Origin: Candidatus Poribacteria bacterium
Lineage (GTDB): Bacteria > Poribacteria > WGA-4E > JAJDTR01
Reading direction: 5' to 3'
Assembly: GCA_965222225.1 (NCBI GenBank)
Contig: CBDCTK010000002.1
Location: 3,680,001-3,744,000 of the forward strand
DNA length: 64,000 bases
Shown here: positions 5,373 to 60,660 of the stretch, in pieces
Layout: every line of letters starts with the position of its first letter
Numbering within the stretch: position 1 is the first letter of the stretch
Translations under genes and position numbers: made by a program
The notes under the pieces: model-generated
The model's input: only the letters and a program-made list of their open reading frames with translations
The model's database searches: none
Told to the model about the DNA's origin: nothing

Positions 5373-5441
5373 ATCAAGCGAACGAATAGATCAACCGAGT
5401 GAATAGCGAGGACGATAGAGATCCCAGTGCGATAGAGATCC
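5373..5441 (+). repeat. 35-nt mini-element, double nest (inner copy 5390-5424)
   Basis: atcaagcgaacgaatag[atcaaccgagtgaatagcgaggacgatagagatcc]cagtgcgatagagatcc. Confidence 0.85.
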
Positions 5442-5915: not shown

Positions 5916-7913
5916 ATGCCTGAAATGAAAAGGACGCACTATTGCGGAGAACTACGGCTCGCCGATGCCGGAAAATCTGCCCGATTAACCGGCTGGGTAG
6001 CCCGCCGTCGAGATCACGGCGGCGTCATTTTCGTCGACGTGCGGGATCGGACGGGAATCACCCAGGTCGTCTTTGACCCCGAGATTGACCCCGAGCCGCA
6101 CCAACTAGCACACCAGATCCGGAACGAATTTGTGCTGAGCGTCGCCGGAAGCGTGCGCGAGCGCGTCGAAGGCGATTTATTGGCGCTGACCGATCGGAAG
6201 CATCAAGCCGACCTTGATGCCGGGCATCTCTCCGAAGAATTGAAATCCACTTTCGAGAACGATAGACATTCACTCTCGGCGGATGTGACGATTTCCGTTC
6301 GAGAAGCCGGAAGCCGATGGCTTATCACCGACAATGAAAGCAAGCGCACCTACGCGGCCAAAGTCGTTGACGATGCCCTCCACATCTATCAGGGCACCAT
6401 CAATCCGGAACTTGCCACGGGCGAAATCGAACTGGCAACGGTTCAGCTTGAGATTTTGAACCGCGCCGAAACGCCTCCGTTCCCCGTTGAGGATGATATC
6501 GACACCGACGAGGAGATTCGCATGATATACCGATACATCGATCTCCGTCGTCCCAAGATGCAAAAGACTTTGGCGGTTCGACACAAAGCCATGCTCGCCG
6601 CCCGGAAATACATGGATGAACAGGGGTTCCTTGAAATCGAAACCCCAATCCTGATGAACAGCACGCCGGAAGGCGCACGGGACGTGCTGGTGCCAAGCCG
6701 ACTCAACGCTGGCAGCTTCTACGCGCTTCCCCAGTCGCCGCAGCAGTTCAAGCAAATCTTGATGATGAGCGGCGTCGATCGCTATTTCCAGATTCCTCGC
6801 TGCTTCCGCGATGAGGACACCCGCGCCGACCGCCAACTTGAGTTCACGCAACTCGATCTTGAGATGTCTTTCGCGACGGTGGATGACGTTCTCGAAGTCA
6901 CAGAGGGGTTGATGAAACGCATGTTTGAGGAAGCTGCGGACATTCCCGTACCAACGCCGTTTCCGCGTATCTCCTACCACGACTCCATGACGCGGTTCGG
7001 CAACGACAAACCGGACACCCGTTTCGGGATGGAGCTCTCCGAGCTCTCCGACCTCGTCGCCGACTGTGATTTCAAGGTGTTTACCGGTGCCTTGGAACGA
7101 AAGGGGCGGGTCAAGGGAATCGCCGTTCCCGGCGGAGCGGTGTTTTCCAGAAAAGAGATTGAGAACTTGACCGAATTTGTCGCAATCTACAAAGCGAGGG
7201 GATTGGCGTGGATTAAAGTCGCAGAGAAGGGATTCGAGTCCAGCATCGTCAAGTTCTTCAGCGAGGAGACGCTCAAGGCGGTGGCGGAACGGATGGGAGC
7301 AAAGCCGGGTGACATCATGATGTTCGTCGCCGATAAGCCGAAGATAGTCGCCGACGCCCTGTCGAATCTCCGACTTCGGCTCGGACGGCAACTCGGTCTT
7401 ATCGACGAGAGCCGTTTCGACTTCCTGTGGATTGTCGATTATCCGCTATTCGAGTGGAACGAAGACGAAAACCGTTACGAACCCTTCCACCATCTCTTCA
7501 CCGCGCCCACCGACGACAGCATTCCGCTTTTGGAGACCGATCCGGGGGACGCCCAATCGCAGCACTACGATCTCGTCATCAACGGCATAGAGATTTGCAG
7601 CGGCAGCGTACGAATCCATCGCTGGGATATTCAGCAGAAAGTGTTGGAACTCCTGAACATCGGTCCCGAGGAAGTCGAAAGCCGATATGGCTACTTCATC
7701 AAAGCCTTGCAACACGGCACGCCGCCGCACGCCGGCATTGCGCCCGGGCTGGATCGCATCCTGATGCTGATGACCGGCGAAGAGAATATCCGCGAAGTCA
7801 TCGCCTTCCCGAAAACCCAAAAAGGCTTATGCCTCCTCACCAGCGCCCCCTCCCAAGTCACCGACGAGCAGTTGGAGGAATTATCAATCAAAGTGGATCT
7901 GGAGCAGGAATAA
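5916..7913 (+). CDS. aspS: Aspartate--tRNA ligase (probably non-discriminating), with a ~74-aa insertion in the anticodon-binding domain
   Basis: RTHYCG, RRDHGG, TPEGARD, LPQSPQQFKQ, CFRDED, PPHAGIAPGLDR, FPKT. Confidence 0.97.
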   Translation: MPEMKRTHYCGELRLADAGKSARLTGWVARRRDHGGVIFVDVRDRTGITQVVFDPEIDPEPHQLAHQIRNEFVLSVAGSVRERVEGDLLALTDRKHQADLDAGHLSEELKSTFENDRHSLSADVTISVREAGSRWLITDNESKRTYAAKVVDDALHIYQGTINPELATGEIELATVQLEILNRAETPPFPVEDDIDTDEEIRMIYRYIDLRRPKMQKTLAVRHKAMLAARKYMDEQGFLEIETPILMNSTPEGARDVLVPSRLNAGSFYALPQSPQQFKQILMMSGVDRYFQIPRCFRDEDTRADRQLEFTQLDLEMSFATVDDVLEVTEGLMKRMFEEAADIPVPTPFPRISYHDSMTRFGNDKPDTRFGMELSELSDLVADCDFKVFTGALERKGRVKGIAVPGGAVFSRKEIENLTEFVAIYKARGLAWIKVAEKGFESSIVKFFSEETLKAVAERMGAKPGDIMMFVADKPKIVADALSNLRLRLGRQLGLIDESRFDFLWIVDYPLFEWNEDENRYEPFHHLFTAPTDDSIPLLETDPGDAQSQHYDLVINGIEICSGSVRIHRWDIQQKVLELLNIGPEEVESRYGYFIKALQHGTPPHAGIAPGLDRILMLMTGEENIREVIAFPKTQKGLCLLTSAPSQVTDEQLEELSIKVDLEQE

Positions 7914-8131
7914 CTCATGCGGTGGTGTCCTGCTTTGTAGGGTGCGCATTGCGCACCAGCCTTTGTAAGCCCCAATGACGCGACAGTTGTTGTAGGGTAG
8001 GCATCGCCCACCAGCGTTTGATTTTATAGGGTGGGATTTGCGATTACAAATCGCAGATTTCTTCTCTTACCGCCCATCAGCCTTTGGTTTTGTAGCATAA
8101 ACATTCCCCACTAACAACGCCGTGTCGCCTA

Positions 8132-8413
8132 TTATGCGCGCTCGGTTTCGCGCACTCTTTTTCCGCGGTGATAGACATCGGTAGGCATGTCCTTGCGTGC
8201 GAGTGGGTGCGCTAAATTGTAATCCGCCCCCTGCTTTCTCAAGCGAACGCCACTCCCCGATGCAGCAATAACGCGTTCGTATTCCTCAATTAAACGGTAA
8301 AATTCCAATAGTAGTTGATGGTCAACTTTCGGTTTTTTTAGTATTTCCATGTCAGTTTTCCTGTGAGTCTTGACCCCTTGAACGAAAATAGAGTATTGCT
8401 GAGAGTTTTTCAT
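8132..8413 (-). CDS. Hypothetical protein
   Basis: ATG at 8413 preceded by GAAAGGAAG; divergent from the XRE regulator. Confidence 0.5.
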   Translation of the reverse strand: MKNSQQYSIFVQGVKTHRKTDMEILKKPKVDHQLLLEFYRLIEEYERVIAASGSGVRLRKQGADYNLAHPLARKDMPTDVYHRGKRVRETERA

Positions 8414-8526
8414 GGTGAGCTTCCTTTCAATTTTGTAGTATAATATCATGATTTTACCGCTTAATTCCAGCGTTTTACCCTCACGACCAACGAACAATTT
8501 CAATCCCAATATCTGAGATAATCTTC

Positions 8527-9679
8527 ATGGCTGAATACATGAAAGGGATTAATCCCGACATAATCAAGTGGGCGAGAGAACGCTCGGGATACACGCTTAA
8601 GGAAGTCGCCGATTCCGTCAACAAGGACGCTGAAACCATCTCCAACTGGGAGTCCGGGAGTTCCGCACCGACCTATGCCCAGCTTGAAAAACTGGCTGAC
8701 AAATTCAAACGTCCCACCGCTCTGTTCTTCTTCCCAGAAATTCCACAAGAACCCAATCTCGTGAACCAGTTTTCGTTACGAAGTTCGGAAATTGAGAAAC
8801 TGAGTCCAAAAATCCATCTGCTATTGCGTCAAGCAGCCGCTAGACAGATTTCATTGATGGAGCTGAATATGGGCGTGAATCCTGCGGAAACAAGAATTTT
8901 TCGCGATCTTCATGCCCAACTTGATGCCCCTTTAGCGGACATAGCACGCCAAACCCGGGAGTATTTGGATGTGAGCGTTGAAACCCAAGCAAGTTGGAGC
9001 AACCCGACGAAGGCCCTCGAAATCTGGCGAGACCGTATTGAGGAAAAAGGCATCTTCGTATTCAAAGACGCATTCCGGAGCGACGTTGTTGATGGTTTTT
9101 GTCTAGTCCATAATGAGTTTCCTGTTATCTATCTGAACAATAGTATGCCCCATTCCAGACAGATTTTCACACTCTTTCATGAGTTGGCTCACTTACTGTT
9201 CCGGCGGAATGGCATCACACGCGGCGTCAAAATTGGAGGGGAGAGAATTGAGCGGTTTTGCAACCAATTTGCCGCTGAATTTCTGGTGCCATCTTCCGAT
9301 TTGGAAACGCGGCTTGATTTCCCAAATTACGATGATACTGCAATTGGGGAGTTGACAAGTCATTATAAAGTTAGTCGTCCGGTTATACTGCTCAAACTGA
9401 TCGAGCAAAACATCTTCACACCAGCCGACTATGAACATAAAGATAAAAAAATGGAAAGAGGTATACGAATCTAGCCTTGAAAAAGTGGCGGAGAGCAAGA
9501 GATCTGGCGGAGGAGACTATTACAATACCCGTGCAATCTACTTAGGCTACAGATTCCTAGAGCTCGCTTTCGGCAAATATCATCAAGGAGGGTGTTCAAT
9601 TGAAGAACTCGCAGGGCATCTGAATGTCAAAGTCAAGAATTTGCCTGGGCTGGAAGACCGTCTACTCGGAGGATCATGA
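8527..9679 (+). pseudogene. XRE-family HTH + ImmA/IrrE metallopeptidase, split by a frameshift near the A7 run at 9445-9451
   Basis: N-terminal HTH (TISNWESG), FTLFHELAH HExxH, ERFCNQFAAEFLVP; the C-terminus (GGGDYYNT...LNVKVKNL) continues in ORF 9431-9679. Confidence 0.8.
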
Positions 9680-9996
9680 AATCCTCGAATTCCCTTTTCA
9701 TCTTTCAGGTGCGTAAAAACTGTAAGGTAGGCATCGCCCACCGTGAAGGATTTGGCAAGTACCCAAGCCAGTTTTCGATCTGAAACTACGCGGTATTTTC
9801 CACTAGCCAAAATATCTAGAAAAGGGTATGATATCAACGTTGATACGCTAACCTTCGCGGAAATCTGATGTCTTCAAAGCGGCGTTTTAGGTTCGTAAAT
9901 GTGAAGATGGCGACCTGCCTTGTCTCTGCTTCGACGATTTGACTTTACTATAAATACTGGCAGTTTTAGAATAAAACGTACCACTGGAAGGAAATC

Positions 9997-11343
9997 ATGA
10001 CGGCTGAAGTTGCGGTGATGAATAAGCAAGCAATTGCCCTCGCAGCAGACAGCGCTGCTACATTTCGTGATGAAATAGGACAGAAGATTTTCCCCTCCGC
10101 AAGCAAAATCTTCACGTTGTCCAAATACCACCCTGTAGGCGTAATGGTTTATGGTAACGCCAGTATTATGGGCGTTCCTTGGGAAACAGTTATCAAGGCT
10201 TACAGAAGTCAATTAAAGCAGAAAGCATTTCCGTCAATAAACGATTACGCTGCTGATTTTATTTCCTATCTGACCGAAGGAAAGTTATTTGTCTCGGAAC
10301 TAGAAGAAGAAGAGTATGTAAGGAATTCCGTCTATGGTTACTTTAGACTCATCGTGAACCAGGTCGGTGAAAAACTTCAGCCAATCATCGAATCAGAGGG
10401 CGAACAAGAGAAGGCACAGGTAGAGGAAATAATTGCTCAAATTATCCAGGACCACTTCGAGACGTGGGAGAACACAGATTTACTTCCGCAAGTTCCCCCG
10501 GATTGCGTTGAAATTCTCAAGACAAAATATGGGAGTTTAATACAAGAAGCCAAGAAACGCTCTTTTGAGAATATATCAGATGTTTTATCTGGGCAACTGA
10601 CGGAGATTGCGCTTAGTCTTTTCGTAAAGTATCCGGAGGGTGTGTTTAATTCAGGTACATCCGGCGTTGTTATTGCTGGGTTTGGTACAGAAGACATGTT
10701 TCCTGTCCTTGTGTCATATTCAATTGAGGGTAACGTGTGTGATATTTTGAAGTATAAAGAGAATGAAGAAGAATCTACAAGAATCGACTTTGAGAATAAC
10801 GCAACGATTATTCCATTTGCTCAAGGGGAAATGGTAGCAACCTTTATGACAGGTGTTGACCCAAACTATCAAACAGCTCTAGAAGGAGGCCTGCATGAGT
10901 TGTTTACGTCGTACCCAGAGATTCTTGTAGACAGTATAGACAAATTCAGCACTCAAGAGAAGGATGAATTGAAGGCGAAACTACAAGCAATTTCGGATGA
11001 GACGTTTTCTGAATATAGAGATCGGTTGCGCAGTCATCGAAGTGAATTCTACGTGGAACCTATCATGACGGTCGTTCATATGCTTCCCAAAGATGAGCTT
11101 GCCGCAATGGCGGAATCACTCATTAACTTGACTTCCTTCAAGAGAAGGGTTTCAATGGAGGAAGAAACAGTAGGCGGCCCAATTGATGTAGCCGTTATTT
11201 CTAAGGGGGATGGTTTTATTTGGATAAAACGGAAACATTACTTTGACCGCGATTTAAACCAACAATTTTTTGCGAACTATTATAAGGAGATTGAAAACGA
11301 TGAAAGCCGAGAATCAACGAACAAGAAAAACTCCACAGGCTAA
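9997..11343 (+). CDS. Uncharacterised Ntn-hydrolase/proteasome-beta-like protein
   Basis: M-T-AEVAVMNKQAIALAADS start, KIF, and C-terminal TVGGPIDVAVI, resembling proteasome/HslV T1-D17-K33 and GG motifs. Confidence 0.6.
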   Translation: MTAEVAVMNKQAIALAADSAATFRDEIGQKIFPSASKIFTLSKYHPVGVMVYGNASIMGVPWETVIKAYRSQLKQKAFPSINDYAADFISYLTEGKLFVSELEEEEYVRNSVYGYFRLIVNQVGEKLQPIIESEGEQEKAQVEEIIAQIIQDHFETWENTDLLPQVPPDCVEILKTKYGSLIQEAKKRSFENISDVLSGQLTEIALSLFVKYPEGVFNSGTSGVVIAGFGTEDMFPVLVSYSIEGNVCDILKYKENEEESTRIDFENNATIIPFAQGEMVATFMTGVDPNYQTALEGGLHELFTSYPEILVDSIDKFSTQEKDELKAKLQAISDETFSEYRDRLRSHRSEFYVEPIMTVVHMLPKDELAAMAESLINLTSFKRRVSMEEETVGGPIDVAVISKGDGFIWIKRKHYFDRDLNQQFFANYYKEIENDESRESTNKKNSTG

Positions 11344-14743: not shown

Positions 14744-15375
14744 TAACGTGTGTAATGTGTCTAATTGTAGGGTGGGCACTGCCCACCATCTCCGACTACT
14801 AACCGTACGTATCCCATGGTTTCCTGATATTGATTAGGACTACGCAAACGTGAAACTCCTAGCCCACCGCTGGGCTCACGACGTGGCGATGCGTAAAGGT
14901 GTAACGATACTGTTGCGAATATTTTCCGTGAAAGACTTCTGGCGATGGACTGTTACACGAAGTTTACTGGGTTGCCTGTTACCCCAAAAAAATCCAATGT
15001 TTGTGACATTTTGTGATATTTTGTGACAATTCGTGACATCGCAAGAATCAAACACATTAAGACGGCGTAGATTGGGCTGTACGAACAACCTCCTCGTCCC
15101 AACCATTTTGTATGGATAGATGCCAACCGTGTTTTTCATACCTACTTTCCCGTGCAATTCATACAGAACTTGCTAAGAAGCCGGTTATAGCGTGTATTTT
15201 CGCGCCTTTTTTCCCGTAAAAGTTTCCCAATTCTGCATATTACGTACGAAGAGTATGAAATGCTGTGATGATCCCGTAGAATGCAGCCACTTGTAGTTTT
15301 TCTCTTTTGCGTTCTAGCGGAGCAGAATGTGGTTCAGGCAAACCTGCAGGTCGTTTTTGTAGGGTGCGCACTGCA

Positions 15376-15410
15376 ATCAAGCGAGTGGATAGCGAGTGCG
15401 ATAGCCATCT
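15376..15410 (+). repeat. 35-nt mini-element inserted in a family-A REP
   Basis: gtagggtgcgcactgca[atcaagcgagtggatagcgagtgcgatagccatct]taccagcc versus intact gtagggtgcgcattgcgcaccagcc at 7937. Confidence 0.85.
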
Positions 15411-15480
15411 TACCAGCCTTTGAAAGCGCCAGCGGGGCGATAGATAGCAATCTGCATTAAGATAGCCGAGGAAGCACAGG

Positions 15481-15852
15481 ATGGGTAAAAACCACGACAT
15501 CTTTGACGGCTACACCGTCAACCTATTCCTTGATGAAGATGGCGATTATCTTGCGCATCTCGTCGAACTCCCAAATGTCTCGGCTTTCGGACCAACGCCT
15601 GCCCAAGCACTAGTTGAATTGAAAGCAGCTTGGGAATTGATGAAAGAATGCTACCAAGAGGATGGCGCTCCTGTCCCTAAAGCACCGTCACGGGAAGGAT
15701 ACGAAGGGCCGTTCAACGTTCCCGTTGATGCCCGACTTTATCATGAATTAACAAATGGAGCGGCGCAAGCGGGAATCAGTCTTTACGCGCTTGTGGCAGA
15801 GAAGCTAGCGAAGCCGACATCACGTGGCACAAATAGGACAAAAATAACATAA
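15481..15852 (+). CDS. HicB-family antitoxin
   Basis: DGDYLAHLVELPNVSAFGPTPAQA...VPKAP...GPFNVPVDARLYHEL (RNase-H-like plus RHH). Confidence 0.85.
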   Translation: MGKNHDIFDGYTVNLFLDEDGDYLAHLVELPNVSAFGPTPAQALVELKAAWELMKECYQEDGAPVPKAPSREGYEGPFNVPVDARLYHELTNGAAQAGISLYALVAEKLAKPTSRGTNRTKIT

Positions 15853-16826
15853 TGTCTAAAGAAAAATCCCACGATCTATATGACTTCATGCAGCAGTTAA
15901 GCGATGAGATGGCTGCAGAATATACACGCATCCAAAAGCGAGCAGCCGAGGACCCAGGGACCGCTGGAGACCAAGGCGAAGAAAACTGGGCTAAACTGTT
16001 GAGCGAATGGCTTCCCCGTACCTATCACGTTGCTACAAAAGGACGCATCATTAGCTCAGATGGCCGCACAAGCCCTCAGGTTGATGTTTTAGTGCTAAAG
16101 GACGTGTATCCCAAGAAACTACTCGACAAGAAATTGTATCTCGCTGCAGGTGTTGCCGCCGCGTTTGAATGCAAAACCACGCTGAAGGCATCACATATTG
16201 AGGAAGCCGTGAAGAGATGTGTAGAGATCAAGAATTTGTATCCGGTCCGGGAAGGCACGCCTTACAAGGAATTACACGCGCCCATTGTATATGGGTTGTT
16301 GGCACATTCTCATTCTTGGAAGGGAAAGAATTCAACGCCTGAAGAAAATATTGAGCAAAAACTGTCGAAGGCTGACGAATTGCACGTGTCTCATCCTCGG
16401 CTAAGCCTTGATGTGCTCTGTGTTGCCGATCTTGCTTCGTGGACAATGTCTAAGATGACGTTTTTTGCTCCATGGATGATTCCCGGATATGAATGGTCGT
16501 TTCCTCAAGAATATCCGCGGCATGGCGTAGCATTGAGTTCGTATATTGCACATACAACCTCCGTCGAAAATCAAGTCTATTATTTCACTCCAATTGGTGT
16601 TCTCATTTCCATACTGTCGCACCTGCTCGCATGGGAAACCCCAGCACTGCGTGACCTCGTGGACTATTACCAAATTACAGACATAGGGGGTTCTGGTGCG
16701 GGAGTCCCTCGCCCGTGGCCTAGTTCAATATACAGCGAAAGCGTTCGCGACCGTGCCAAGTTCGGCCCCTTAGCAACCGGCAAAACCAAGAGATGGGATG
16801 AATGGAATATGGCTTTCTGGCCTTGA
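15852..16826 (+). CDS. DUF6602-like restriction-endonuclease-fold protein
   Basis: DPGTAGDQGEENW, SPQVDVLV and AAFECKTTL fit a PD-(D/E)xK-like arrangement; start overlaps the HicB stop. Confidence 0.65.
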   Translation: MSKEKSHDLYDFMQQLSDEMAAEYTRIQKRAAEDPGTAGDQGEENWAKLLSEWLPRTYHVATKGRIISSDGRTSPQVDVLVLKDVYPKKLLDKKLYLAAGVAAAFECKTTLKASHIEEAVKRCVEIKNLYPVREGTPYKELHAPIVYGLLAHSHSWKGKNSTPEENIEQKLSKADELHVSHPRLSLDVLCVADLASWTMSKMTFFAPWMIPGYEWSFPQEYPRHGVALSSYIAHTTSVENQVYYFTPIGVLISILSHLLAWETPALRDLVDYYQITDIGGSGAGVPRPWPSSIYSESVRDRAKFGPLATGKTKRWDEWNMAFWP

Positions 16827-17025
16827 GTGAGTGCAACGGCAATTTCTTCTAGTAGAAGTCTTGTAACAAAAACGGGATTAAGAGAAGAACACTGGGGCAA
16901 AGTCAAAGGAACCATCTCGCTTGAGATAAGGCGTTGGAGGAGTACCTACTCTATAGTTAACTCGCCCGCTAGGTCGGCTTTTACAGGGGCCATTCCACTA
17001 TAACGCACGTGTTGCAATGCTTCCT

Positions 17026-17140
17026 TGTCTGAATCACGGATTAACTGGATAACGCAGATGACGCGGATTAAAATCCGATTGGACCTTTGGACGAAAAATC
17101 CGTGAAATCCAGTAATCCGTGCGAATCCGCGATTCAGACA
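17026..17140. repeat. Palindromic MITE-like element with TGTCTGAATC...GATTCAGACA ends and internal (CGGATT)/(AATCCG) iterations
   Basis: Perfect 10-bp terminal inverted repeat plus mirrored internal repeats. Confidence 0.75.
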
Positions 17141-17198
17141 CCCCATTAACGTCGTACACACTGTGAACACCTTGCAACACAAATGAAGGTCCGGACAC

Positions 17199-18357
17199 AT
17201 GAAACAATTTATTGCCTATTTATCATTGGGAGCTTTTTTGGGGATGATGCCACCTCCGTTATTCGCCCAACAGAATCAATCCCCGCAACAGCTAGTCCAA
17301 GAAATCGAACTTCTCAAGAACAAAGTCTCAAAGCTAGAAAAGCAACTTCGGACTGTGGAAAATGTTGAGAAGATAGAGTTACAAGCACAACTCGCTGAGG
17401 CAAATGCAAAACTTGCCGAAGCTAACGCTAAGCTTGTTAATACAGAGTTTGAGAAATTCAAGCGAGAGCTGAGGATTGATAATGAGGAGCTGGAGTTATT
17501 GGCTTTTTGGTATTCTTAGCTTTATTGCAGTAGCTAGCGGCACTGCTGTTTGGTTTTCGCTCAAATCATTAATAGCGGATAGAGTTGAAAAGAGCCTAGA
17601 CGGGTTTAAAAAAGGCCTGAAAGAGTTGGACCTACTGAAAAATCAACTTGGAGTATTGGAAAAAGAACATACAGTGTCAATATTGCAGGATTTGCGCGGC
17701 TGGTTCCTACAGGACGAACATGACCATCCTGAACCAGTTAAAGCACTCCGTGAAGAAACTCTTTTGGAGATACTTACCGATGGAAGATATGACGACGCAA
17801 ATCTTGATTTACAACTCAGATATAAAGCCGTAGAAATTTTAGCCGCACGAAAATCTTCCAGATTAGTTTCTCCTACGCTGGAAATCTTAAATTCAGTTGT
17901 GGATTCAGACTCACACATTGATTTTCAAACAGAGAATTCCTTGTGTGGATTTATCAACTCGCTTGCACGTATACACACGCCTGAATCTTATCAGGGGCTT
18001 AAAAGATTTCTCAACCGTTTATTGACAGAGAGTCCGAAACATAAGGATTCATTTTTAATGGCAACAGTTCTTGCATTTGGCCGGGCTGCTATTGAATTGA
18101 ATATGAGAGACTCGGTTTCTATATTGAAATCGGCTATGCCCCATTTACAGGATCCTGGATACGAAGACCTAAGTAAATTGGTTGAATATTTTGATAGATT
18201 CAACGATTCTGCAGGAATAAAGGAAATCTTGACCAAGCACGTAACGAGTGGGATGCCTGAGGTGAAAAGGCAATGCTTGGACGCATTGGAAAAGTACGAC
18301 CCCGAGTTTGCAGCAAATTGGCGAGCACAACACACAACTGACGACGCCGAATCATAA
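17199..18357 (+). pseudogene. Signal peptide + coiled-coil + TM + helical-repeat protein, frameshifted near 17480
   Basis: ORFs 17199-17519 and 17476-18357 overlap in different frames and read as one protein. Confidence 0.6.
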
Positions 18358-19352: not shown

Positions 19353-19387
19353 ATTAACTGAGTGGATAGCGAAGGCGATAGAGATCC
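19353..19387 (+). repeat. 35-nt mini-element
   Basis: cg[attaactgagtggatagcgaaggcgatagagatcc]ca. Confidence 0.85.
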
Positions 19388-23393: not shown

Positions 23394-25016
23394 ATGGATC
23401 AAACGAATCACGACGCACCTGCCGAAACAAGTGGCGGTCACAAAATCCTCATTGGTATCATTATCGCCATTATTTTCGGAACGATCGTCGGTGGCTGGCT
23501 GCCGGGCGTCGCCGTAAAGACTTCAATTCTCGGCGAAATCTTCCTCAATTCGCTGAAGATGATTGTCGTCCCGCTCGTCATGCTCTCAATGATCGTTGGC
23601 ATCACCGGCTTGGGCGATATACGGAACCTAGGTCCCATTGGCGGACGTACCGTTCTCTACTATATGGCGACAACAGGGATTTCGGTGTTGATTGGCATTA
23701 TCTTGGTCAATGTCATTCAACCGGGAAAAGGCATTTCGCACGGCGAAGAACGCCCCGAGTTGGCGTATACCCTCAGCGGCGATGGGGACCGCACCGTCAA
23801 TCTGACAAACGGCACATGGAAAAGGACACGATACAGCGAAAAATACATGCTGATGTTGTCGGATCAGCAGGTTGAGGGCGAGATAGAATCCCTCTCCGAG
23901 GAGTCGGCGACGGTGAAATCCTGGAAAAACAAGGTGGAAGGCGTATTCCACATCGCAACCGATAGCGGCGAGCATCTGCCATTCCGCCGCGTGAACGGAG
24001 AGGTAGTTTCTGCCGAGCCTGAACTTTTACAGAATGGAACAGGGCTTGAGGTCAAGTTGCCCGTCGCCCAGAAACTTCGTGGTAAAGAGAAACGGGATAT
24101 GGGTGGCACGTTGAAGGAGGTGCTGCTCGGAGACAAATCGACCGGAAAAGAGGGTATGATTCCACGCAATGTCTTCAATGCGATGGTGCGAATGGATATC
24201 TTGCCCCTGATATTCTTCTCGCTACTGATTGGCGCCACGCTTTCAGTTCTCGGCGAGCGGGGGCGACCCGCCATATCAGTTATTTCCGGCTTGAATGATG
24301 CCGTAATGCAACTGGTGCACTGGATTATGGTTCTCGCCCCGGTCGGCATCTTTGGACTGATAGCCGGACGTATTGGTGACGCTGGGGGATTCAAAAGCTT
24401 TTTGCCGGAACTGATGGCAGTCGGGAAATACAGTTTCACCGTCGTGTTTGGACTTGGGGTGCATGGCATTATTGTATTGCCGCTTATCCTCCTGCTGATT
24501 GCCCGCAGAAATCCGGTGAAGTACCTAAAGGGCATGAGTACTGCGCTACTGAACGCTTTTTCGACAGCTTCCTCCTCCGCCACGCTTCCGCTATCAATGA
24601 GGGCGGTCCAAAAGGAAAATGGGGTTTCTAACCGCACGGCGAGTTTTGTCCTGCCGCTCGGCGCTACAATCAACATGGACGGCACCGCCCTCTACGAAGC
24701 CATTGCGGCGATGTTCATCGCGCAGGTCTACGGGATCGAGCTCGGCCCAGCCCAACAGACTGTTATCTTTCTGACAGCCACCCTAGCAGCGATTGGCGCG
24801 GCGGGAATTCCGGAAGCCGGGCTTGTCACTATGGTCATCGTCCTTAGAGCCGTTGACCTGCCGATTGAAGGTATCGGGCTTATTCTGACGATTGATTGGT
24901 TGCTTGACCGATTCCGAACAACTGTTAATGTCTGGGGCGACAGCGTCGGAGCCGGTGTTATCGAAACGCTCGAAAACCGCAGTACCTCGGAACATGCGGA
25001 TCAAGCGAATGGATAA
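23394..25016 (+). CDS. Dicarboxylate/amino acid:cation symporter (DAACS) with a large inserted soluble domain
   Basis: LKMIVVPL, FSTASSSATLP, GATINMDGTALYE, DRFRTTVNVWGD. Confidence 0.93.
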   Translation: MDQTNHDAPAETSGGHKILIGIIIAIIFGTIVGGWLPGVAVKTSILGEIFLNSLKMIVVPLVMLSMIVGITGLGDIRNLGPIGGRTVLYYMATTGISVLIGIILVNVIQPGKGISHGEERPELAYTLSGDGDRTVNLTNGTWKRTRYSEKYMLMLSDQQVEGEIESLSEESATVKSWKNKVEGVFHIATDSGEHLPFRRVNGEVVSAEPELLQNGTGLEVKLPVAQKLRGKEKRDMGGTLKEVLLGDKSTGKEGMIPRNVFNAMVRMDILPLIFFSLLIGATLSVLGERGRPAISVISGLNDAVMQLVHWIMVLAPVGIFGLIAGRIGDAGGFKSFLPELMAVGKYSFTVVFGLGVHGIIVLPLILLLIARRNPVKYLKGMSTALLNAFSTASSSATLPLSMRAVQKENGVSNRTASFVLPLGATINMDGTALYEAIAAMFIAQVYGIELGPAQQTVIFLTATLAAIGAAGIPEAGLVTMVIVLRAVDLPIEGIGLILTIDWLLDRFRTTVNVWGDSVGAGVIETLENRSTSEHADQANG

Positions 25017-25104
25017 TGACCGATCAACTGAGTGGTCAACGAAGGCGATAGTAAAGCTCGATAGAAGTCCCATAGTGGCCGCGATCGAGTTCCTATAGAG
25101 ATCC
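25000..25104 (+). repeat. 35-nt mini-element, triple nest (105 nt)
   Basis: Outer 25000-25022 + 25093-25104; middle 25023-25034 + 25071-25092; inner 25035-25070. Confidence 0.8.
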
Positions 25105-25270
25105 TTTTTTCTTGAAAACTCGGTTTCTTCCCAATGTCAAGCGCTCATTGACCACTAACCAGCGCGACCACCGCTTTTGGTCTATTCCCTAACTATTCAA
25201 TGCTTACGGGACTTGTGCCTTTATCGGCTGCGTCGTGCGGCGGTGCCACACTAGCCACTGGCCACTGCTT

Positions 25271-26305
25271 CTAGCGATTCGGTTGGATTAGCACCTTGGC
25301 CGATGATTTCGCTGCCTCAATCGCCAGCGTCGCGTCCTCAAGTGGAAAGACCTCCGAAACCAACGATTTCACAGGTAAACTCTCCCTCGTCAGGAGTCCG
25401 ATTGCCTTTGCGAATGGCCCGCAACGGGACGTTTGAATCCGCACCTCATCAACGACCAACTTGGTAGCGTCAATGCCCGTTGCGGGCAAGCCGCAGGTGG
25501 TCTTCAGCGCAATGGTGCCGCGCGGGCGCACGATTTCTGTGGCGAGACGGAGACCTTCCGGGTTGCCGGTCGTGTCAACCACGACATCGCCGCCAATGCC
25601 TTCAGTCCACTCGCGCACGGCTTCGATCCATTTTGGTTGATTGGCGTTGATAGCCTCAACCGCCCCCCAAGCCAGCGCACGCTTGAGTTTGTCCGGCGAA
25701 CGAGAAACGGCGCACACCCGCGCTTCTTTGAGGGCGGCAACCGTACAAATTAGCAATCCCAATCTGCCGACGCCAAGAACGACAACTTGGCTTGATGGGG
25801 AAATCGGCGTCAACTCGAATGTCTGAATGGCTGCGGCAAGCGGTTCAATGAAAACACCCTCCTCCCAAGAGACTCTATCGGGGAGTGGGTGGAGGTTCAG
25901 AATCGGCACCCGCAGGTATTCAGCGTATGCTCCATCATAGTTGATGATACCCACGACGGTGCGTTCCATACAGTGATTGGACAGTCCGCGTCGACACGCC
26001 GCGCAGAACACCTCACGATTATAAGCACGGCAGGTATTGTTGATTTCCGCGGCAACCCGTTTCCCAATCCAAGGATGGCTGTTTTCGGATCCAACTTCCA
26101 CAACTTCGCCAACTAGCTCGTGACCGAGCACCAGCGGCAGAGGTACCGCATAATCCCCGGAGAATAGCGCGATGTCGGTGCCGCACACGCCGACGCACTC
26201 CACGCGAACGATTGCCTCGCTCGGTTGCAAAGATGGAAATCGGCGCGTGACAACTTCAAATTTTCGGATGGCTGTGAGTGCGGCGGCGCGGTGATTTGGA
26301 ATCAT
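25271..26305 (-). CDS. Zinc-dependent alcohol dehydrogenase (MDR family)
   Basis: GVCGTD, LGHE, CAACRRGLSNHC, EPLAAA, GVGRLG. Confidence 0.92.
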   Translation of the reverse strand: MIPNHRAAALTAIRKFEVVTRRFPSLQPSEAIVRVECVGVCGTDIALFSGDYAVPLPLVLGHELVGEVVEVGSENSHPWIGKRVAAEINNTCRAYNREVFCAACRRGLSNHCMERTVVGIINYDGAYAEYLRVPILNLHPLPDRVSWEEGVFIEPLAAAIQTFELTPISPSSQVVVLGVGRLGLLICTVAALKEARVCAVSRSPDKLKRALAWGAVEAINANQPKWIEAVREWTEGIGGDVVVDTTGNPEGLRLATEIVRPRGTIALKTTCGLPATGIDATKLVVDEVRIQTSRCGPFAKAIGLLTRESLPVKSLVSEVFPLEDATLAIEAAKSSAKVLIQPNR

Positions 26306-45631: not shown

Positions 45632-45701
45632 ATCAATTGAGCGGATAGTGATGGATCAAGCGAAAGATTAGTGAGTGCGATAGAACCCCTATAGAAGCTC
45701 C
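45632..45701 (+). repeat. 35-nt mini-element, double nest (70 nt; inner 45655-45688)
   Basis: atcaattgagcggatagtgatgg[atcaagcgaaagattagtgagtgcgatagaaccc]ctatagaagctcc. Confidence 0.8.
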
Positions 45702-47371: not shown

Positions 47372-48017
47372 ATGTTCAAACTCTTCGATTCTAACAGTGA
47401 CTTCCAAATTACAGAAGGTTCAAATCTGCCACATTGGTTTCAACCGCAAGCAACCTACTTTATTACCTTTCGCACTGAGGATTCACCCCCTGGGCATATA
47501 GTTCGACGGTGGTACGCCAAACGATCGGTTTGGCTTGCACAACACGGAATTTCCATTTCAATGCCAGATTGGAAAGACAAACTTGCAGAACTTCCAGAAG
47601 GATTGCGCAAAAATTTTCATCATACGTTTTCACGGCAATATTATGGAATACCTAGACAATGGTCTGGGAAGATGCGATCTGAAACGACCAAGACTATCAA
47701 AGATTGTAGCGGACAGTTTGTTATACTTTAATGGCGATCGGTACCAAATAGGTGACTTTGTGATAATGCCCAACCATGTTCACTTGCTGGTTTGTTTGCT
47801 AGGCGATACAGATCTCCTGAAGCAATGCCGCTCGTGGAAAAAGTTCAGTGCAGGCAAGATTAATAAACTGCTTGAGCGATCCGGCCGATTTTGGCAGGAA
47901 GAAAGTTTCGATCACCTCGTCCGATCGTCTGAACAGTTCTGCGCAATCCAACAATATATAATGAAAAACCCAAGCTATCTCTCGAATGGCGAGTATTTTT
48001 TGTATCAGTTAAAGTAG
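47372..48017 (+). pseudogene. REP-associated tyrosine transposase (RAYT/TnpA-REP, Y1 HUH), frameshifted near 47641
   Basis: LPHW...YFITFR in ORF 47372; VIMPNHVHLL, FWQEESFDHLVR and YI..NP in ORF 47535; REPs on both sides. Confidence 0.88.
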
Positions 48018-56586: not shown

Positions 56587-58572
56587 ATGAATTTCCGACA
56601 GAAAATCACACTATATCTTTTACTCTATATCGCGATGTGCAGCGCCGCATTCGCCCAAGTCGTTGAGATACCCGACCCCAACCTTCGCGCTGCCATCGCC
56701 GATGTGTTGGGCATCCCGCGTGGCGCTCCCATCACCCAAGACGATATGAATCGCCTGACACACCTTGACGTTCTGGACCAAGGTATAGCCAATCTAACCG
56801 GCTTGGAGTTCGCAATAAATCTCACGTCCCTTCGTATTGCCGACAACCCAATATCTGACCTACGTCCACTCGCCGGGTTGACCCAGTTGGAAGACCTATC
56901 AATGTGGGCGGTTCGTCATGCCGACATTAGTCCACTGTCCAATCTCACGAGTCTCCGAGGTCTTGACATTGCAGCATGTATTATTGACGACATTAGCGCG
57001 TTAGCAACGTTAACCCAACTTGTCGGGCTTAATATCAGAGGGAACAACATTGCCGATATTCGTCCGCTGTCAAATCTCAAACGACTTAAATCTTTACATG
57101 CCGATAATAATCGTATTACTGATGTCACTCCACTTAGCAATTTGCCAAGGCTGGACTGGTTAGAAATCCACCACAATCAAATAACCGACCATAGCCCGCT
57201 GGACGCGCTCGCACTGTCTCATTTTACGTATGATCAAACATGCGAGATGCCGCCGCTTCCCCTTGAACCACGATTAGCGAATAGAAACTACCCTTCGGTA
57301 TTTACGCGATGGGGCGGCGCTTCTAGAATTGACAATCGTCCCGATGTATCCTTGACGGAAAATACCGCGCTTCATGATTTATGGTACGACGGCCCTCAAT
57401 TTGATTTAGAATTCCAAGAAACATCTCACGGCTTTGCGATAGCCGGCATTCTTGACGAGGCGGTGCAAAGACGCGATGAATATCTTTCTATCAATCCAAA
57501 CATGGTGTTCATTGTTGATATCCGGATGAGAGAAGAGTGGGTATGGGACCTTCCCGAGAACTGGCCGGGCTGGATACGAGACGCCGATGGCCAAAGAGTA
57601 AGCGATTGGCCCGACGCTTTCCTGAACGATTTTACTAACCCACTTGTCCAAGATCGCATTGTCCAACAGGCCATTGCAGTATCCAAGTGCGGTTTGTACG
57701 ACGGCATTTTCTTCGATTATTGGACCGAGAAATGGCCCGTTCTTTCGGGCTGGCGCAGTATGGAAGCTGAACAACGCGCTCGTGACGAGATCTTGAGACG
57801 CATCCGCGCGGCAACCCGCCCGAATTTCCTAATAACGGGCAATGTGAATAATGCAATACTTCCTAGAACCACACCTTACGTCAACAGTGGATTCATGGAA
57901 ACAGTGGTACCGGCTGATCGTGATCTGGAAGATGTCACACGGGAAATAAATATCGACGCCAATTCTCTGTTCTGGCTAGATAAGAATCTGCGCGAACCGC
58001 GTGTCAACGGAATAGAAGGCTGGGCAGTTCCCACCGAAGCACCCGATAGCCCAACGAACCTCCGCTGGATGCGGGCTTTCACTGCACTCAGCCTAACGCA
58101 TTCCGACGAGTACGTCGCTTACCGAAATATAATAGGAGACTCTTACCACTGGTACGACTTCTGCGATGCTAACCTCGGACGCCCCGTCGGGGAGAAGGGG
58201 CAGGTCTATGAGGGGCGATCAAGCGAGGGGACAGCGAGTGCGATAGAGATCCCAGGGCTTTATATCCGCGAATTCACGAACGGCTGGGCTGTTTACAACC
58301 ACAGCGGCGCGGCGCAGGTCATCACGCTGCCGGAGGAGGTGCAGGGCGTCGCTAGCGGGTTGGTAAACACGGAGCATGCGCTCCCCAACCTTGACGGGGA
58401 GATGTATCTGCGCGTCAAACCGAAGAACCCGGCGGATGTCAACGGGGACGGGGTGGTGAATATCTTCGACTTAACGATAGTTGCGCAGGAATTCGGGACG
58501 GATAGTTTGAAGGGAGATGAGGATGGGGTTGTCAATGTGTTTGACCTTGTGTTTGTGGCGAACCAATTCTGA
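56587..58572 (+). CDS. Secreted internalin-like LRR protein with a glycoside-hydrolase-like domain and C-terminal dockerin-like motif
   Basis: Signal peptide, IPDPNLRAAI cap, N.ISDL.PL..LT.L repeats, YDGIFFD, DVNGDGVVNIFDL. Confidence 0.85.
   Translation: MNFRQKITLYLLLYIAMCSAAFAQVVEIPDPNLRAAIADVLGIPRGAPITQDDMNRLTHLDVLDQGIANLTGLEFAINLTSLRIADNPISDLRPLAGLTQLEDLSMWAVRHADISPLSNLTSLRGLDIAACIIDDISALATLTQLVGLNIRGNNIADIRPLSNLKRLKSLHADNNRITDVTPLSNLPRLDWLEIHHNQITDHSPLDALALSHFTYDQTCEMPPLPLEPRLANRNYPSVFTRWGGASRIDNRPDVSLTENTALHDLWYDGPQFDLEFQETSHGFAIAGILDEAVQRRDEYLSINPNMVFIVDIRMREEWVWDLPENWPGWIRDADGQRVSDWPDAFLNDFTNPLVQDRIVQQAIAVSKCGLYDGIFFDYWTEKWPVLSGWRSMEAEQRARDEILRRIRAATRPNFLITGNVNNAILPRTTPYVNSGFMETVVPADRDLEDVTREINIDANSLFWLDKNLREPRVNGIEGWAVPTEAPDSPTNLRWMRAFTALSLTHSDEYVAYRNIIGDSYHWYDFCDANLGRPVGEKGQVYEGRSSEGTASAIEIPGLYIREFTNGWAVYNHSGAAQVITLPEEVQGVASGLVNTEHALPNLDGEMYLRVKPKNPADVNGDGVVNIFDLTIVAQEFGTDSLKGDEDGVVNVFDLVFVANQF
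58218..58252 (+). repeat. 35-nt mini-element inside a coding sequence
   Basis: cg[atcaagcgaggggacagcgagtgcgatagagatcc]ca, read as RSSEGTASAIEIP. Confidence 0.85.
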
Positions 58573-60625: not shown

Positions 60626-60660
60626 ATCAAGGGAGTGAATAGTGACCGCGATAGAGATCC
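60626..60660 (+). repeat. 35-nt mini-element inserted in a terminator-like hairpin
   Basis: atgcgggg[atcaagggagtgaatagtgaccgcgatagagatcc]ccttgccccgcat. Confidence 0.88.

What the first reader, a model, noticed from the sequence alone, without database searches (positions are those of the whole stretch)
25000..25104. Triple Russian-doll nest of the mini-element (105 nt = 3 x 35) that supplies a gene's stop codon
Seen: atcaagcgaatggataatgaccg[atcaactgagtg[gtcaacgaaggcgatagtaaagctcgatagaagtcc]catagtggccgcgatcgagttc]ctatagagatcc. Removing the inner pieces restores consensus-like units of 35, 34 and 36 nt, and both internal junctions are G^C. The outer copy encodes the last residues (DQANG) and the TAA of the DAACS transporter. 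Inference: sequential insertion events, with the element remodelling a protein C-terminus.
Basis: partly seen in the sequence, partly recalled or inferred. Interest (0 to 1): 0.8.

Follow-up and report, generated by a model that had tools for sequence, protein, structure and literature searches.

The report
Nested mini-repeat ends a transporter gene
The end of a sponge-symbiont transporter gene is built from copies of a 35-base hairpin repeat inserted one inside another, and the first copy supplies the protein's last residues and stop codon; the nest is real but two deep, not three.

Summary
The tract is real and the transporter ends DQANG-TAA inside it. It belongs to a 35/36-nt repeat family with about 950-1000 copies in this Candidatus Poribacteria genome and none in reversed or complemented controls. 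The family has a covarying hairpin.

Self-nesting is a general property. Cutting out complete units restores 166 split hosts, 15 of them true triple nests. Junctions lie after model positions 23, 19 and 12. Split hairpins stay complementary across the insert.

This tract, however, parses best as two deep. A 36-nt guest (25023-25058) sits in a host (25000-22 plus 25059-70). Older remnants follow (25071-25104), and their last 21 nt are shared with a sister species.

All 9 congeneric species keep a native C-terminus. Three protein lineages carry unit-derived ends although their 96-99% identical relatives do not. The C-terminus remodelling is therefore supported.

The most likely mechanism is a non-autonomous, REP-like single-strand hairpin element that inserts after G. 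The enzyme is unidentified. This scan had noted a different GTAG-REP family in this genome, but not this one.

The parts
23394..25016 (+). DAACS-type (PF00375) dicarboxylate/amino acid:cation symporter gene, 540 aa
   Evidence: ORF list. Precomputed Pfam family and source names on homologs.
24999..25016 (+). Last five codons (DQANG) and the TAA. Except for the first G, they are read from unit positions 1-17. The stop is the loop triplet at unit positions 15-17, which is TAA or TAG in nearly all copies.
   Evidence: position 15 T 0.86, position 16 A 0.99, position 17 A/G 0.99. 13 crude ORFs genome-wide stop at this unit position.
25000..25022 (+). Host unit U1, 5' part (model positions 1-23)
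   Evidence: Excision parse. Joined with 25059-25070 it scores 47.4 bits.
25023..25058 (+). Guest unit U2, 36-nt tail variant, inserted at the G23^C24 junction of U1. All four variable stem pairs are Watson-Crick.
   Evidence: The same guest, including its unusual loop, occurs in the same kind of nest at G000:C2:1925266-1925330.
25059..25070 (+). Host unit U1, 3' part (model positions 24-35)
   Evidence: A 36-nt gap is the commonest nest geometry (102 of 167 gaps).
25071..25083 (+). Unresolved remnant. It is either positions 13-25 of a third unit whose 5' part is missing, or a diverged remnant of the 5' half of a GTAG-tagged REP that holds this place in G005.
   Evidence: Left over. Aligns to the G005 REP half at lower identity than the flanks.
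25084..25104 (+). Old truncated unit (short head remnant plus 12-nt tail) shared with sister species G005, so it predates the U1/U2 nest.
   Evidence: MAFFT alignment of the 3' regions of five species. G005 sequence.
5373..5441 (+). Another two-deep nest of the same family in this window (guest 5390-5424 in a host split after position 17)
60626..60660 (+). Solo unit, the best-scoring copy in the window. Other solo units lie at 15376-15410, 19353-19387, 45655-45689 and 58218-58252.

Best explanation
The tract is a pile-up of a lineage-specific family of 35/36-nt REP-like hairpin repeats.

SHOWN:
1. Each unit has a fixed 5-nt head and a 6+6-nt stem. The stem has four freely varying but complementary positions around an invariant tandem G.A/A.G. 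A 5-nt loop and a fixed 12-13-nt tail follow.
2. Units are found inserted into other units just after a G at three preferred places (after positions 12, 19 and 23), and into the hairpins of other REP families.
3. At this locus, one 36-nt unit sits inside a 35-nt unit.
4. That pair abuts the transporter reading frame after the codon for Ala-535, so the frame runs 17 nt into the host unit and stops at its loop TAA.
5. Behind the pair lie older remnants that a sister species also carries.

INFERRED:
1. The units are non-autonomous mobile DNA that moves as a folded single strand, mobilised in trans by an unidentified enzyme, most plausibly an HUH/Y1 transposase.
2. The target is a G in exposed hairpin or fork DNA.
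3. The transporter allele arose by insertion at the G of codon 536, together with, or followed by, loss of the 43-51 nt up to the older downstream repeats. Recombination between two same-sense units would do this.

My odds: about 0.8 for the anatomy and the C-terminus claim, and about 0.4 for the single-strand/HUH mechanism.
For: Family: 946 hits >=20 bits against 0 in controls. Counts in other genomes: 330-824 exact pattern matches in each of 9 congeners, 115-139 in 4 genomes of genus g4, 2 in G010, and 0 in 26 of 41 relatives. Across the phylum, 155 of 176 genomes have none.

Hairpin:
- All four variable pairs are Watson-Crick in 477 of 946 units, against 3% after shuffling partners.
- On 45 units, 39 of them from other species, 95.6% of cells pair against 66.3% shuffled (0 of 500 shuffles reach it). 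Slid controls give 23-58%.
- G-T plus T-G pairs number 436, against 63 A-C plus C-A, so only one strand is constrained.

Insertion rather than duplication:
- 166 hosts are restored by excision, against 5 to 83 with shifted excision.
- 145 of 169 pairs that straddle an insert still pair. Mean Watson-Crick count is 3.08 against 1.83 for shuffled halves.
- Host and guest share 2.95 of 9 variable positions, against 3.73 for random pairs.
- The left flank is G in 882 of 986 units.

Filled versus empty orthologous site: a unit sits in the REP downstream of a Y1 gene in G000, G001 and G005, and is absent there in G002, G012 and the genus g6 genomes.

This tract.

C-terminus: 9 of 9 congeners have native tails. 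Unit-type tails (NQGNG, DQASE, DQANN) occur in proteins whose 96-99% identical relatives have native tails.

Replication link: in +/-50 kb windows with positive GC skew, units lie 147 on + and 287 on -. With negative skew they lie 373 on + and 136 on -, odds ratio 0.19. There is no bias relative to flanking genes (281 sense, 255 antisense).

Assembly support: Logan contigs from runs of three studies match 24800-25046 and 25026-25124 with 0 differences. One of those runs may be the source sample.
Against: - ViennaRNA does not predict the covarying hairpin as DNA or RNA (z-scores -0.3 to +1.1). The fold would need a protein or non-canonical G.A stacking.
- No enzyme is tied to the family. Units flank two of the five Y1 genes in inverted orientation. 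However, the intact one has its own, different REP family, into which the units are inserted, and its orthologs also occur in genera without units.
- The hairpin strand lies on the C-rich strand. By recall, this is the opposite of what is reported for IS608-type elements.
- 747 of 827 distinct unit sequences are singletons, so there is no sign of a recent burst.
- The right-hand junction is untidy. The next base is C (585) or T (323) of 986, and the host base after it is often missing.
- I could not read DNA of the other unit-ended alleles, so insertion into the ORF, as opposed to a deletion fusing the ORF to downstream repeats, is inferred from protein tails only.
- The piece 25071-25083 is unresolved.
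Confidence: 0.68

Rival explanations
1. One reading: three complete units nested like Russian dolls (23|12|36|22|12 nt), made by three successive insertions, with the outermost copy lying in the gene.
For: The segment lengths fit the usual nest geometry, and the two junctions fall at model positions 23 and 12, which are real hot spots. The outer reconstruction scores 46.8 bits. True triple nests exist elsewhere (15).
Against: The 'inner' scores -6.1 bits and the 'middle' 14.2 bits with 0 of 4 Watson-Crick pairs, whereas 59 of 63 genuine split hosts have >=3 pairs when wobble is allowed. The 'middle' head plus 'inner' start form one canonical unit of a common subfamily, and the same arrangement is found at C2:1925266. 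The final tail, with its own head remnant, is shared with G005.
Confidence: 0.06
2. No insertion into the gene occurred. A single deletion removed the last four codons, the stop, the spacer and the 5' parts of an older downstream nest, fusing the frame to a unit that happened to supply a stop.
For: Relative to G005, 43-51 nt are missing, and the downstream repeats are older than the split between the species. G001, G004 and G007 also carry units or nests 20-30 nt behind the stop. Orphan 3' pieces are what such a deletion would leave.
Against: The deletion would have to end exactly at a unit's first base. Unit-type tails with different stem letters sit at the same codon in three lineages whose closest relatives (96-99% identical) have native tails, which suggests recurrent targeting of this G. 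The sequence before the junction fits the family's preferred left flank.
Confidence: 0.2
3. The units are not mobile DNA. They are host-selected structured sites (protein-binding or RNA elements) that spread and pile up by recombination, gene conversion and slippage.
For: The sequences are highly diverse, with few identical copies. Fixed positions are strictly conserved across species while the stems covary, as in functional RNAs. 796 of 946 units lie in the ~19% of the genome that is intergenic.
Against: There is no orientation bias relative to neighbouring genes. Nothing matches in Rfam. Placement is precise, after G, inside other hairpins and inside unrelated REPs, with a filled/empty orthologous site. 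Distribution is patchy: two genera of different families out of 31 genera.
Confidence: 0.1
4. The tract arose by head-to-tail tandem duplication of a 35-nt unit.
For: The length is 105 = 3 x 35.
Against: TRF finds no period-35 array. Local repeat search finds only a 21-nt pair at 71% identity. The three 35-nt thirds do not resemble each other or the family profile: only one window in the uncut tract scores above 0.
Confidence: 0.01

Closest known systems
REP/BIME sequences and REPINs mobilised by RAYT (TnpA-REP) Y1 transposases
   Same: Both are 20-40-nt imperfect palindromes in hundreds of mostly intergenic copies. [quoted passage not shown] The units here likewise have a one-strand constraint and an invariant central G.A/A.G. 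The genome also holds classic GTAG-REPs and Y1 genes flanked by inverted repeats.
   Different: There is no GTAG or CGTC tag. Instead the units have a fixed 5-nt head and a 12-13-nt tail. They are not organised as inverted pairs: 127 of 150 nests are in the same sense. The units insert into each other and into other REPs. No cognate RAYT was found.
Small dispersed repeats (SDR) of Nostoc and relatives: Elhai et al. [quoted passage not shown]
   Same: By title and by my recollection only: mobile repeats of a few tens of bases with a conserved fold, found embedded in other repeats.
   Different: The phylum and the sequence differ. I could not read the paper (not held), so whether nesting, target choice or stem covariation match is untested.
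IS200/IS605 single-strand 'peel and paste' elements and their miniature derivatives
   Same: Hairpin-dependent and strand-specific, with insertion next to a short target and no obvious target duplication, and an orientation linked to the direction of replication (the known family's behaviour is recalled; my data are).
   Different: One hairpin instead of two subterminal ones. The element is only 35 nt long. The strand bias has the opposite sign to the one I recall for IS608. The right junction is untidy.
Insertion sequences that target REP loops (for example IS1397) and repeat-ORF fusions by MITEs
   Same: Mobile DNA that homes into palindromic units is on record (title in the reference list of PMC3116915). 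Fusions between repeat-borne and chromosomal reading frames are on record for Anabaena MITEs and enterobacterial repeats (passage of PMC3184786).
   Different: Those are full IS elements or MITEs of over 100 nt with terminal inverted repeats. Here a 35-nt unit does both jobs, and it also targets its own kind.

Membership tests
REP elements (RAYT-associated) | Short (20-40 nt) imperfect palindrome, over 100 copies, mainly intergenic | tested here: met
   35/36 nt. 946-1022 copies. 796 of 946 lie between crude ORFs.
REP elements (RAYT-associated) | Conserved GTAG or CGTC tetranucleotide at the foot of the hairpin | tested here: not met
   The column profile shows an ATCAA head and a CGATAG-type tail, with no GTAG or CGTC.
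REP elements (RAYT-associated) | A single-copy Y1 (RAYT) gene flanked by inverted copies of the same repeat | tested here: inconclusive
   Units flank 2 of 5 Y1 genes in inverted orientation. In 7 close ortholog loci, 5 of 5 upstream units are sense and 5 of 5 downstream units are antisense. However, the gene's own flanking repeat is a different family, into which the units are inserted.
REP elements (RAYT-associated) | Strand-specific folded single-strand substrate with conserved irregularities in the stem | tested here: inconclusive
   Covariation and the excess of G-T over A-C pairs support it. Thermodynamic folding does not.
IS200/IS605-derived miniature elements | Two subterminal hairpins with cleavage sites set by a short guide or target sequence | tested here: not met
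   Only one covarying helix is present in 35 nt.
IS200/IS605-derived miniature elements | Orientation bias with respect to replication | tested here: met
   Odds ratio 0.19 between unit strand and local GC-skew sign. The sign is opposite to what I recall for IS608, and units in clusters are not independent.
Tandem repeat array | Head-to-tail copies of one period | tested here: not met
   TRF and the local repeat search.
DAACS / SDF transporters (PF00375) | Full-length match to the sodium:dicarboxylate symporter family | tested here: met
   All 120 listed homologs carry PF00375 and are named as dicarboxylate/amino acid:cation symporters. The core is invariant up to the tail.
Elhai SDR families | Sequence and fold of SDR4-6 and their host contexts | not testable with these tools
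   The paper is not held. The citing papers I read give no details.

The most novel reading that the evidence does not exclude
These 35-nt units are among the smallest self-propagating DNA elements in bacteria. In this reading they are single-hairpin, single-strand elements that home after a G in exposed hairpins. The targets are their own kind (giving nests up to three deep) and unrelated REPs. The orientation is set by the replication fork, and the mobilising enzyme is not a classical RAYT. Because the loop always reads as a stop in one frame, they would recurrently rewrite protein C-termini in sponge symbionts.
Probability: 0.3. Interest if true: 0.7.

Novelty: new variant of a known kind. 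Interest (0 to 1): 0.5.

Why it matters
Poribacteria are uncultured sponge symbionts whose genome dynamics are known only from assemblies.

- A roughly 1000-copy family that nests into itself and into REPs explains many assembly breaks. Logan contigs stop at the units.
- It gives a dense set of presence/absence markers between strains.
- It shows a simple route by which tiny repeats change protein ends: 31 of 4386 crude ORFs stop inside a unit.
- The clean covariation with an invariant tandem G.A offers a defined substrate for finding the enzyme that moves REP-like DNA lacking the usual GTAG tag.

For the narrow finding, the lesson is that the striking 'triple doll' is a two-deep nest sitting on older debris.

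Tried and rejected
- Rfam with permissive filters on 24000-26000: 0 matches.
- TRF and local repeats: no tandem structure.
- Terminator scan: nothing at the tract. The one hit, at 24861, is within chance.
- ViennaRNA folds of single units and of the tract: z about 0, and the covarying helix is not predicted.
- Y1 transposase as cognate enzyme by adjacency or by presence/absence: the Pfam family is present in 34 of 41 relatives regardless of units. The unit-flanked gene has its own REP, and orthologs occur in unit-free genera. I therefore dropped the claim of a REPtron.
- Laying public runs to find alleles with 0, 1 or 2 units: the contigs break inside the repeats and none spans the tract. A second strain's contig (26 differences in 24800-24986) runs to 25016 and then stops. 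This is too little to call an allele.
- Scan for large indels between 20 kb of the window and 25 syntenic loci: 7 indels of 25-83 nt, none a clean unit insertion.
- The exact right-hand boundary and any target duplication: the junctions are heterogeneous. Shifted-excision controls are high at +/-4 nt (76-83 hosts against 166), so the register is not fixed by that test.
- Elhai et al. 2008 could not be read.
- Literature searches that listed no description of this family. In one search, no listed paper contained the term Poribacteria.
- Supplementary files were not consulted.

Full report
**1. What is at the coordinates**

The only long ORF ending there is 23394..25016 on the + strand. It is 540 aa and ends DQANG followed by TAA at 25014-25016. 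All 120 listed homologs carry PF00375. The named ones are dicarboxylate/amino acid:cation symporters, and the closest named ones come from Candidatus Poribacteria. That agrees with earlier notes of this scan on the same genome. The window is G000:C2:3680001-3744000, in an assembly of 5.70 Mb with two contigs and 50% G+C.

**2. The repeat family**

It found 72 alignments of at least 30 nt. The 'middle' found none, and the 'inner' found only itself and one paralog.

- A profile built from full-length copies gave 1101 nhmmer hits, of which 360 span all 35 positions.
- An ungapped weight matrix gives 1022, 946 and 729 hits at 15, 20 and 30 bits. It gives none at any threshold in the reversed or complemented genome.
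- The search motif is ATCAANNGANNGRATANNGANNGCGATAG followed by a six- or seven-base tail ending TCC.
- The base before a unit is G in 882 of 986 copies. The base after is C in 585 and T in 323.

**3. A covarying hairpin**

Positions 6, 7, 10 and 11 vary freely but are complementary to positions 22, 21, 18 and 17. Between them sits an invariant tandem G.A/A.G, found in 835 of 946 units.

- All four variable pairs are Watson-Crick in 477 of 946 units, against 3.0% (maximum 4.5%) when partners are shuffled. There are 225 different stem combinations.
- On an independent set of 45 distinct units, 39 of them from eight other species, the pair-counting tool finds 95.6% of cells paired against 66.3% in shuffles (0 of 500 reach it). 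It finds 60 double-sided changes against 10.5, and 23-58% pairing when partners are slid.
- G-T and T-G pairs (436) far outnumber A-C and C-A (63). The constraint therefore acts on one strand only.
- Against this, ViennaRNA does not predict the helix with either DNA or RNA parameters (z between -0.3 and +1.1).
- Rfam has nothing.

**4. Nesting is a family trait**

I cut out the 986 contiguous units: 697 of 35 nt, 287 with a 36-nt tail variant and 2 of 34 nt. I then rescanned the joined flanks.

- This restores 166 split host units, 151 at the second level and 15 at the third. The 15 are genuine triple nests of 104-108 nt.
- Junctions lie after model position 23 (101 cases), 19 (29), 12 (22) and 18 (7).
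- Shifting the excision by 11, 7 or 4 nt gives 5, 17-24 and 76-83 hosts.
- Hosts split inside the hairpin keep their complementarity across the insert. 145 of 169 straddling pairs pair when wobble is counted. The mean Watson-Crick count is 3.08, against 1.83 (maximum 2.16 in 1000 shuffles) for mismatched halves.
- Guests are not copies of their hosts. They share 2.95 of 9 variable positions, against 3.73 for random pairs. 127 of 150 guests are in the same sense as the host.

Units also sit inside other repeat families, especially the loops of GTAG-tagged REPs. One orthologous site is filled in G000, G001 and G005 and empty in G002, G012 and the genus g6 genomes. It is the hairpin repeat just downstream of a Y1 transposase gene.

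**5. The tract itself**

The middle has 0 of 4 Watson-Crick pairs.

All four stem pairs are intact. It belongs to the subfamily that is the commonest guest in nests after positions 12 and 23. The same guest, with the same unusual loop, sits in the same kind of nest at C2:1925266-1925330 (92% identity over 65 nt).

Iterative excision at thresholds 8, 12 and 18 bits always gives the same result:
- guest 25023-25058;
- host 25000-25022 plus 25059-25070, at 47.4 bits;
- 25071-25104 left over.

The 36-nt gap is the commonest geometry (102 of 167 gaps).

**6. What the leftover is**

In the sister species G005, the gene ends natively and is followed by a 36-nt spacer, the 5' half of a GTAG-REP and a truncated unit of 21 nt. 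After that comes the same T-run and about 150 nt of ~97% identical DNA as in G000. G000 positions 25084-25104 match that truncated unit at 18 of 21 positions.

Positions 25071-25083 are ambiguous. They fit unit positions 13-25 well, but they also align, poorly, to the REP half of G005.

**7. The C-terminus**

- All 9 of 9 congeneric species representatives end with a native tail of the type ...(A/T)(E/K/S)S(N/S/T)(A/E). Their stop lies 42 nt after the last conserved block and there is no unit in the ORF. G000 stops at +45.
- Relative to G005, the last four codons, the stop and most of the spacer (43-51 nt) are replaced by the 71-nt nest.
- Among database proteins, unit-type tails occur in three lineages:
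  - G000's own lineage has DQANG and NQGNG.
  - A 94% lineage has DQASE. Its 99% identical sister ends natively (VGSSA).
  - An 87% lineage has DQANN. Its 96-97% identical relatives end natively.
- This pattern favours repeated targeting of the same G. I saw only proteins, not their DNA.
- The tail after the last conserved block varies in length and composition across the family, so the change is probably neutral.
- Genome-wide, 31 of 4386 crude ORFs of at least 100 aa have their stop inside a unit. In 13 of them it lies at the same loop triplet in the same orientation.

**8. Distribution and mechanism**

- With up to one mismatch, the motif is abundant in all 10 genomes of genus g1 (594-1296 matches) and all 4 of genus g4 (206-213), which belongs to another family.
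- It is sporadic (1-19 matches) in 7 further genomes and not found in 155 of 176 phylum genomes. Backward-read controls give 0 everywhere.
- Units show no orientation bias relative to neighbouring genes (281 sense, 255 antisense).
- They show a strong bias relative to local GC skew. In +/-50 kb windows the counts are 147 on + and 287 on - for positive skew, and 373 and 136 for negative skew. Clustered units are not independent, so the p-value is overstated.
- Several features resemble REP/RAYT and IS200/IS605 biology, in which a Y1 enzyme reads a folded single strand and conserved stem mismatches matter (passages of PMC8266576). These features are one-strand structure, a replication link, placement after a fixed base in exposed hairpins, and no visible target duplication.
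- I could not link an enzyme. G000 has five Y1 matches, and units flank two of them in inverted orientation. The intact one is bracketed by its own, different REP family in every genus examined, and the units are merely inserted into it.
- 747 of 827 distinct unit sequences are singletons, so activity is old or slow.

**9. Comparison with what is known**

The family works like REPs, but it fails the tag criterion and the inverted-pair organisation, and it has no identified RAYT. The closest description I know of is the 'very small mobile repeated elements' of cyanobacteria (Elhai et al. 2008). I could not read that paper and cite it from its title and from memory only. Repeat-ORF fusions are on record for larger elements (passage of PMC3184786). 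Four literature searches listed nothing on this family.

I rate it a new variant of a known kind. The specific 'triple doll' is not supported. The general inference, that mini-elements insert into one another and rewrite a protein end, is.

**10. Assembly check**

Logan contigs from runs of three studies reproduce 24800-25046 and 25026-25124 (or to 25300) without a difference. No single contig spans the tract, and one run may be the source sample.

Noticed in passing
G000:C2, for example 1947254-1947358, 3936585-3936691, 4281467-4281571 and 5391734-5391838: Fifteen genuine three-deep nests of the same family (104-108 nt) exist elsewhere in the genome.
   Followed up: partly
window 8041-8065; L086 (G005) about 1222-1253: A second, unrelated mini-insert of about 32 nt (its own small hairpin plus a T/C-rich tail) sits in the loop of GTAG-REPs. 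At window ~5330 it is present in G005 and absent in G000. At window ~8041 it is present in G000 and absent in G003.
   Followed up: no
G000:C2:3080258-3080728 (L043/L045) and orthologs L046-L074: A 157-aa Y1 (HUH) transposase is bracketed by inverted copies of its own G+C-rich hairpin repeat in genera g1, g4 and g6. Analogous repeats with different stem letters occur in g3 and g9. This is a classic REPtron that seems to co-evolve with its repeat.
   Followed up: partly
window 47739-47966 (+): A weak Y1_Tnp match (26.8 bits, 171-aa frame) lies inside this window. One unit lies about 2 kb upstream, at 45655.
   Followed up: no
G000:C2, whole contig: GC skew changes sign about 30 times along the 5.6-Mb contig (20-kb bins, smoothed), and unit orientation follows the local sign. 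This suggests many inversions or assembly joins at repeats.
   Followed up: partly
L005 (G001), about 24-200 nt after the transporter stop: G001 carries its own, different multi-unit nest at the same intergenic spot. G004 and G007 carry a single decayed unit there. The site is a species-specific hot spot for these repeats.
   Followed up: partly
window 6523-10388 and 14818-17809: These stretches recur at G000:C2:1357108-1360972 (100% identity) and 1365311-1368302 (95%). This is a multi-kb segmental duplication upstream of the transporter.
   Followed up: no
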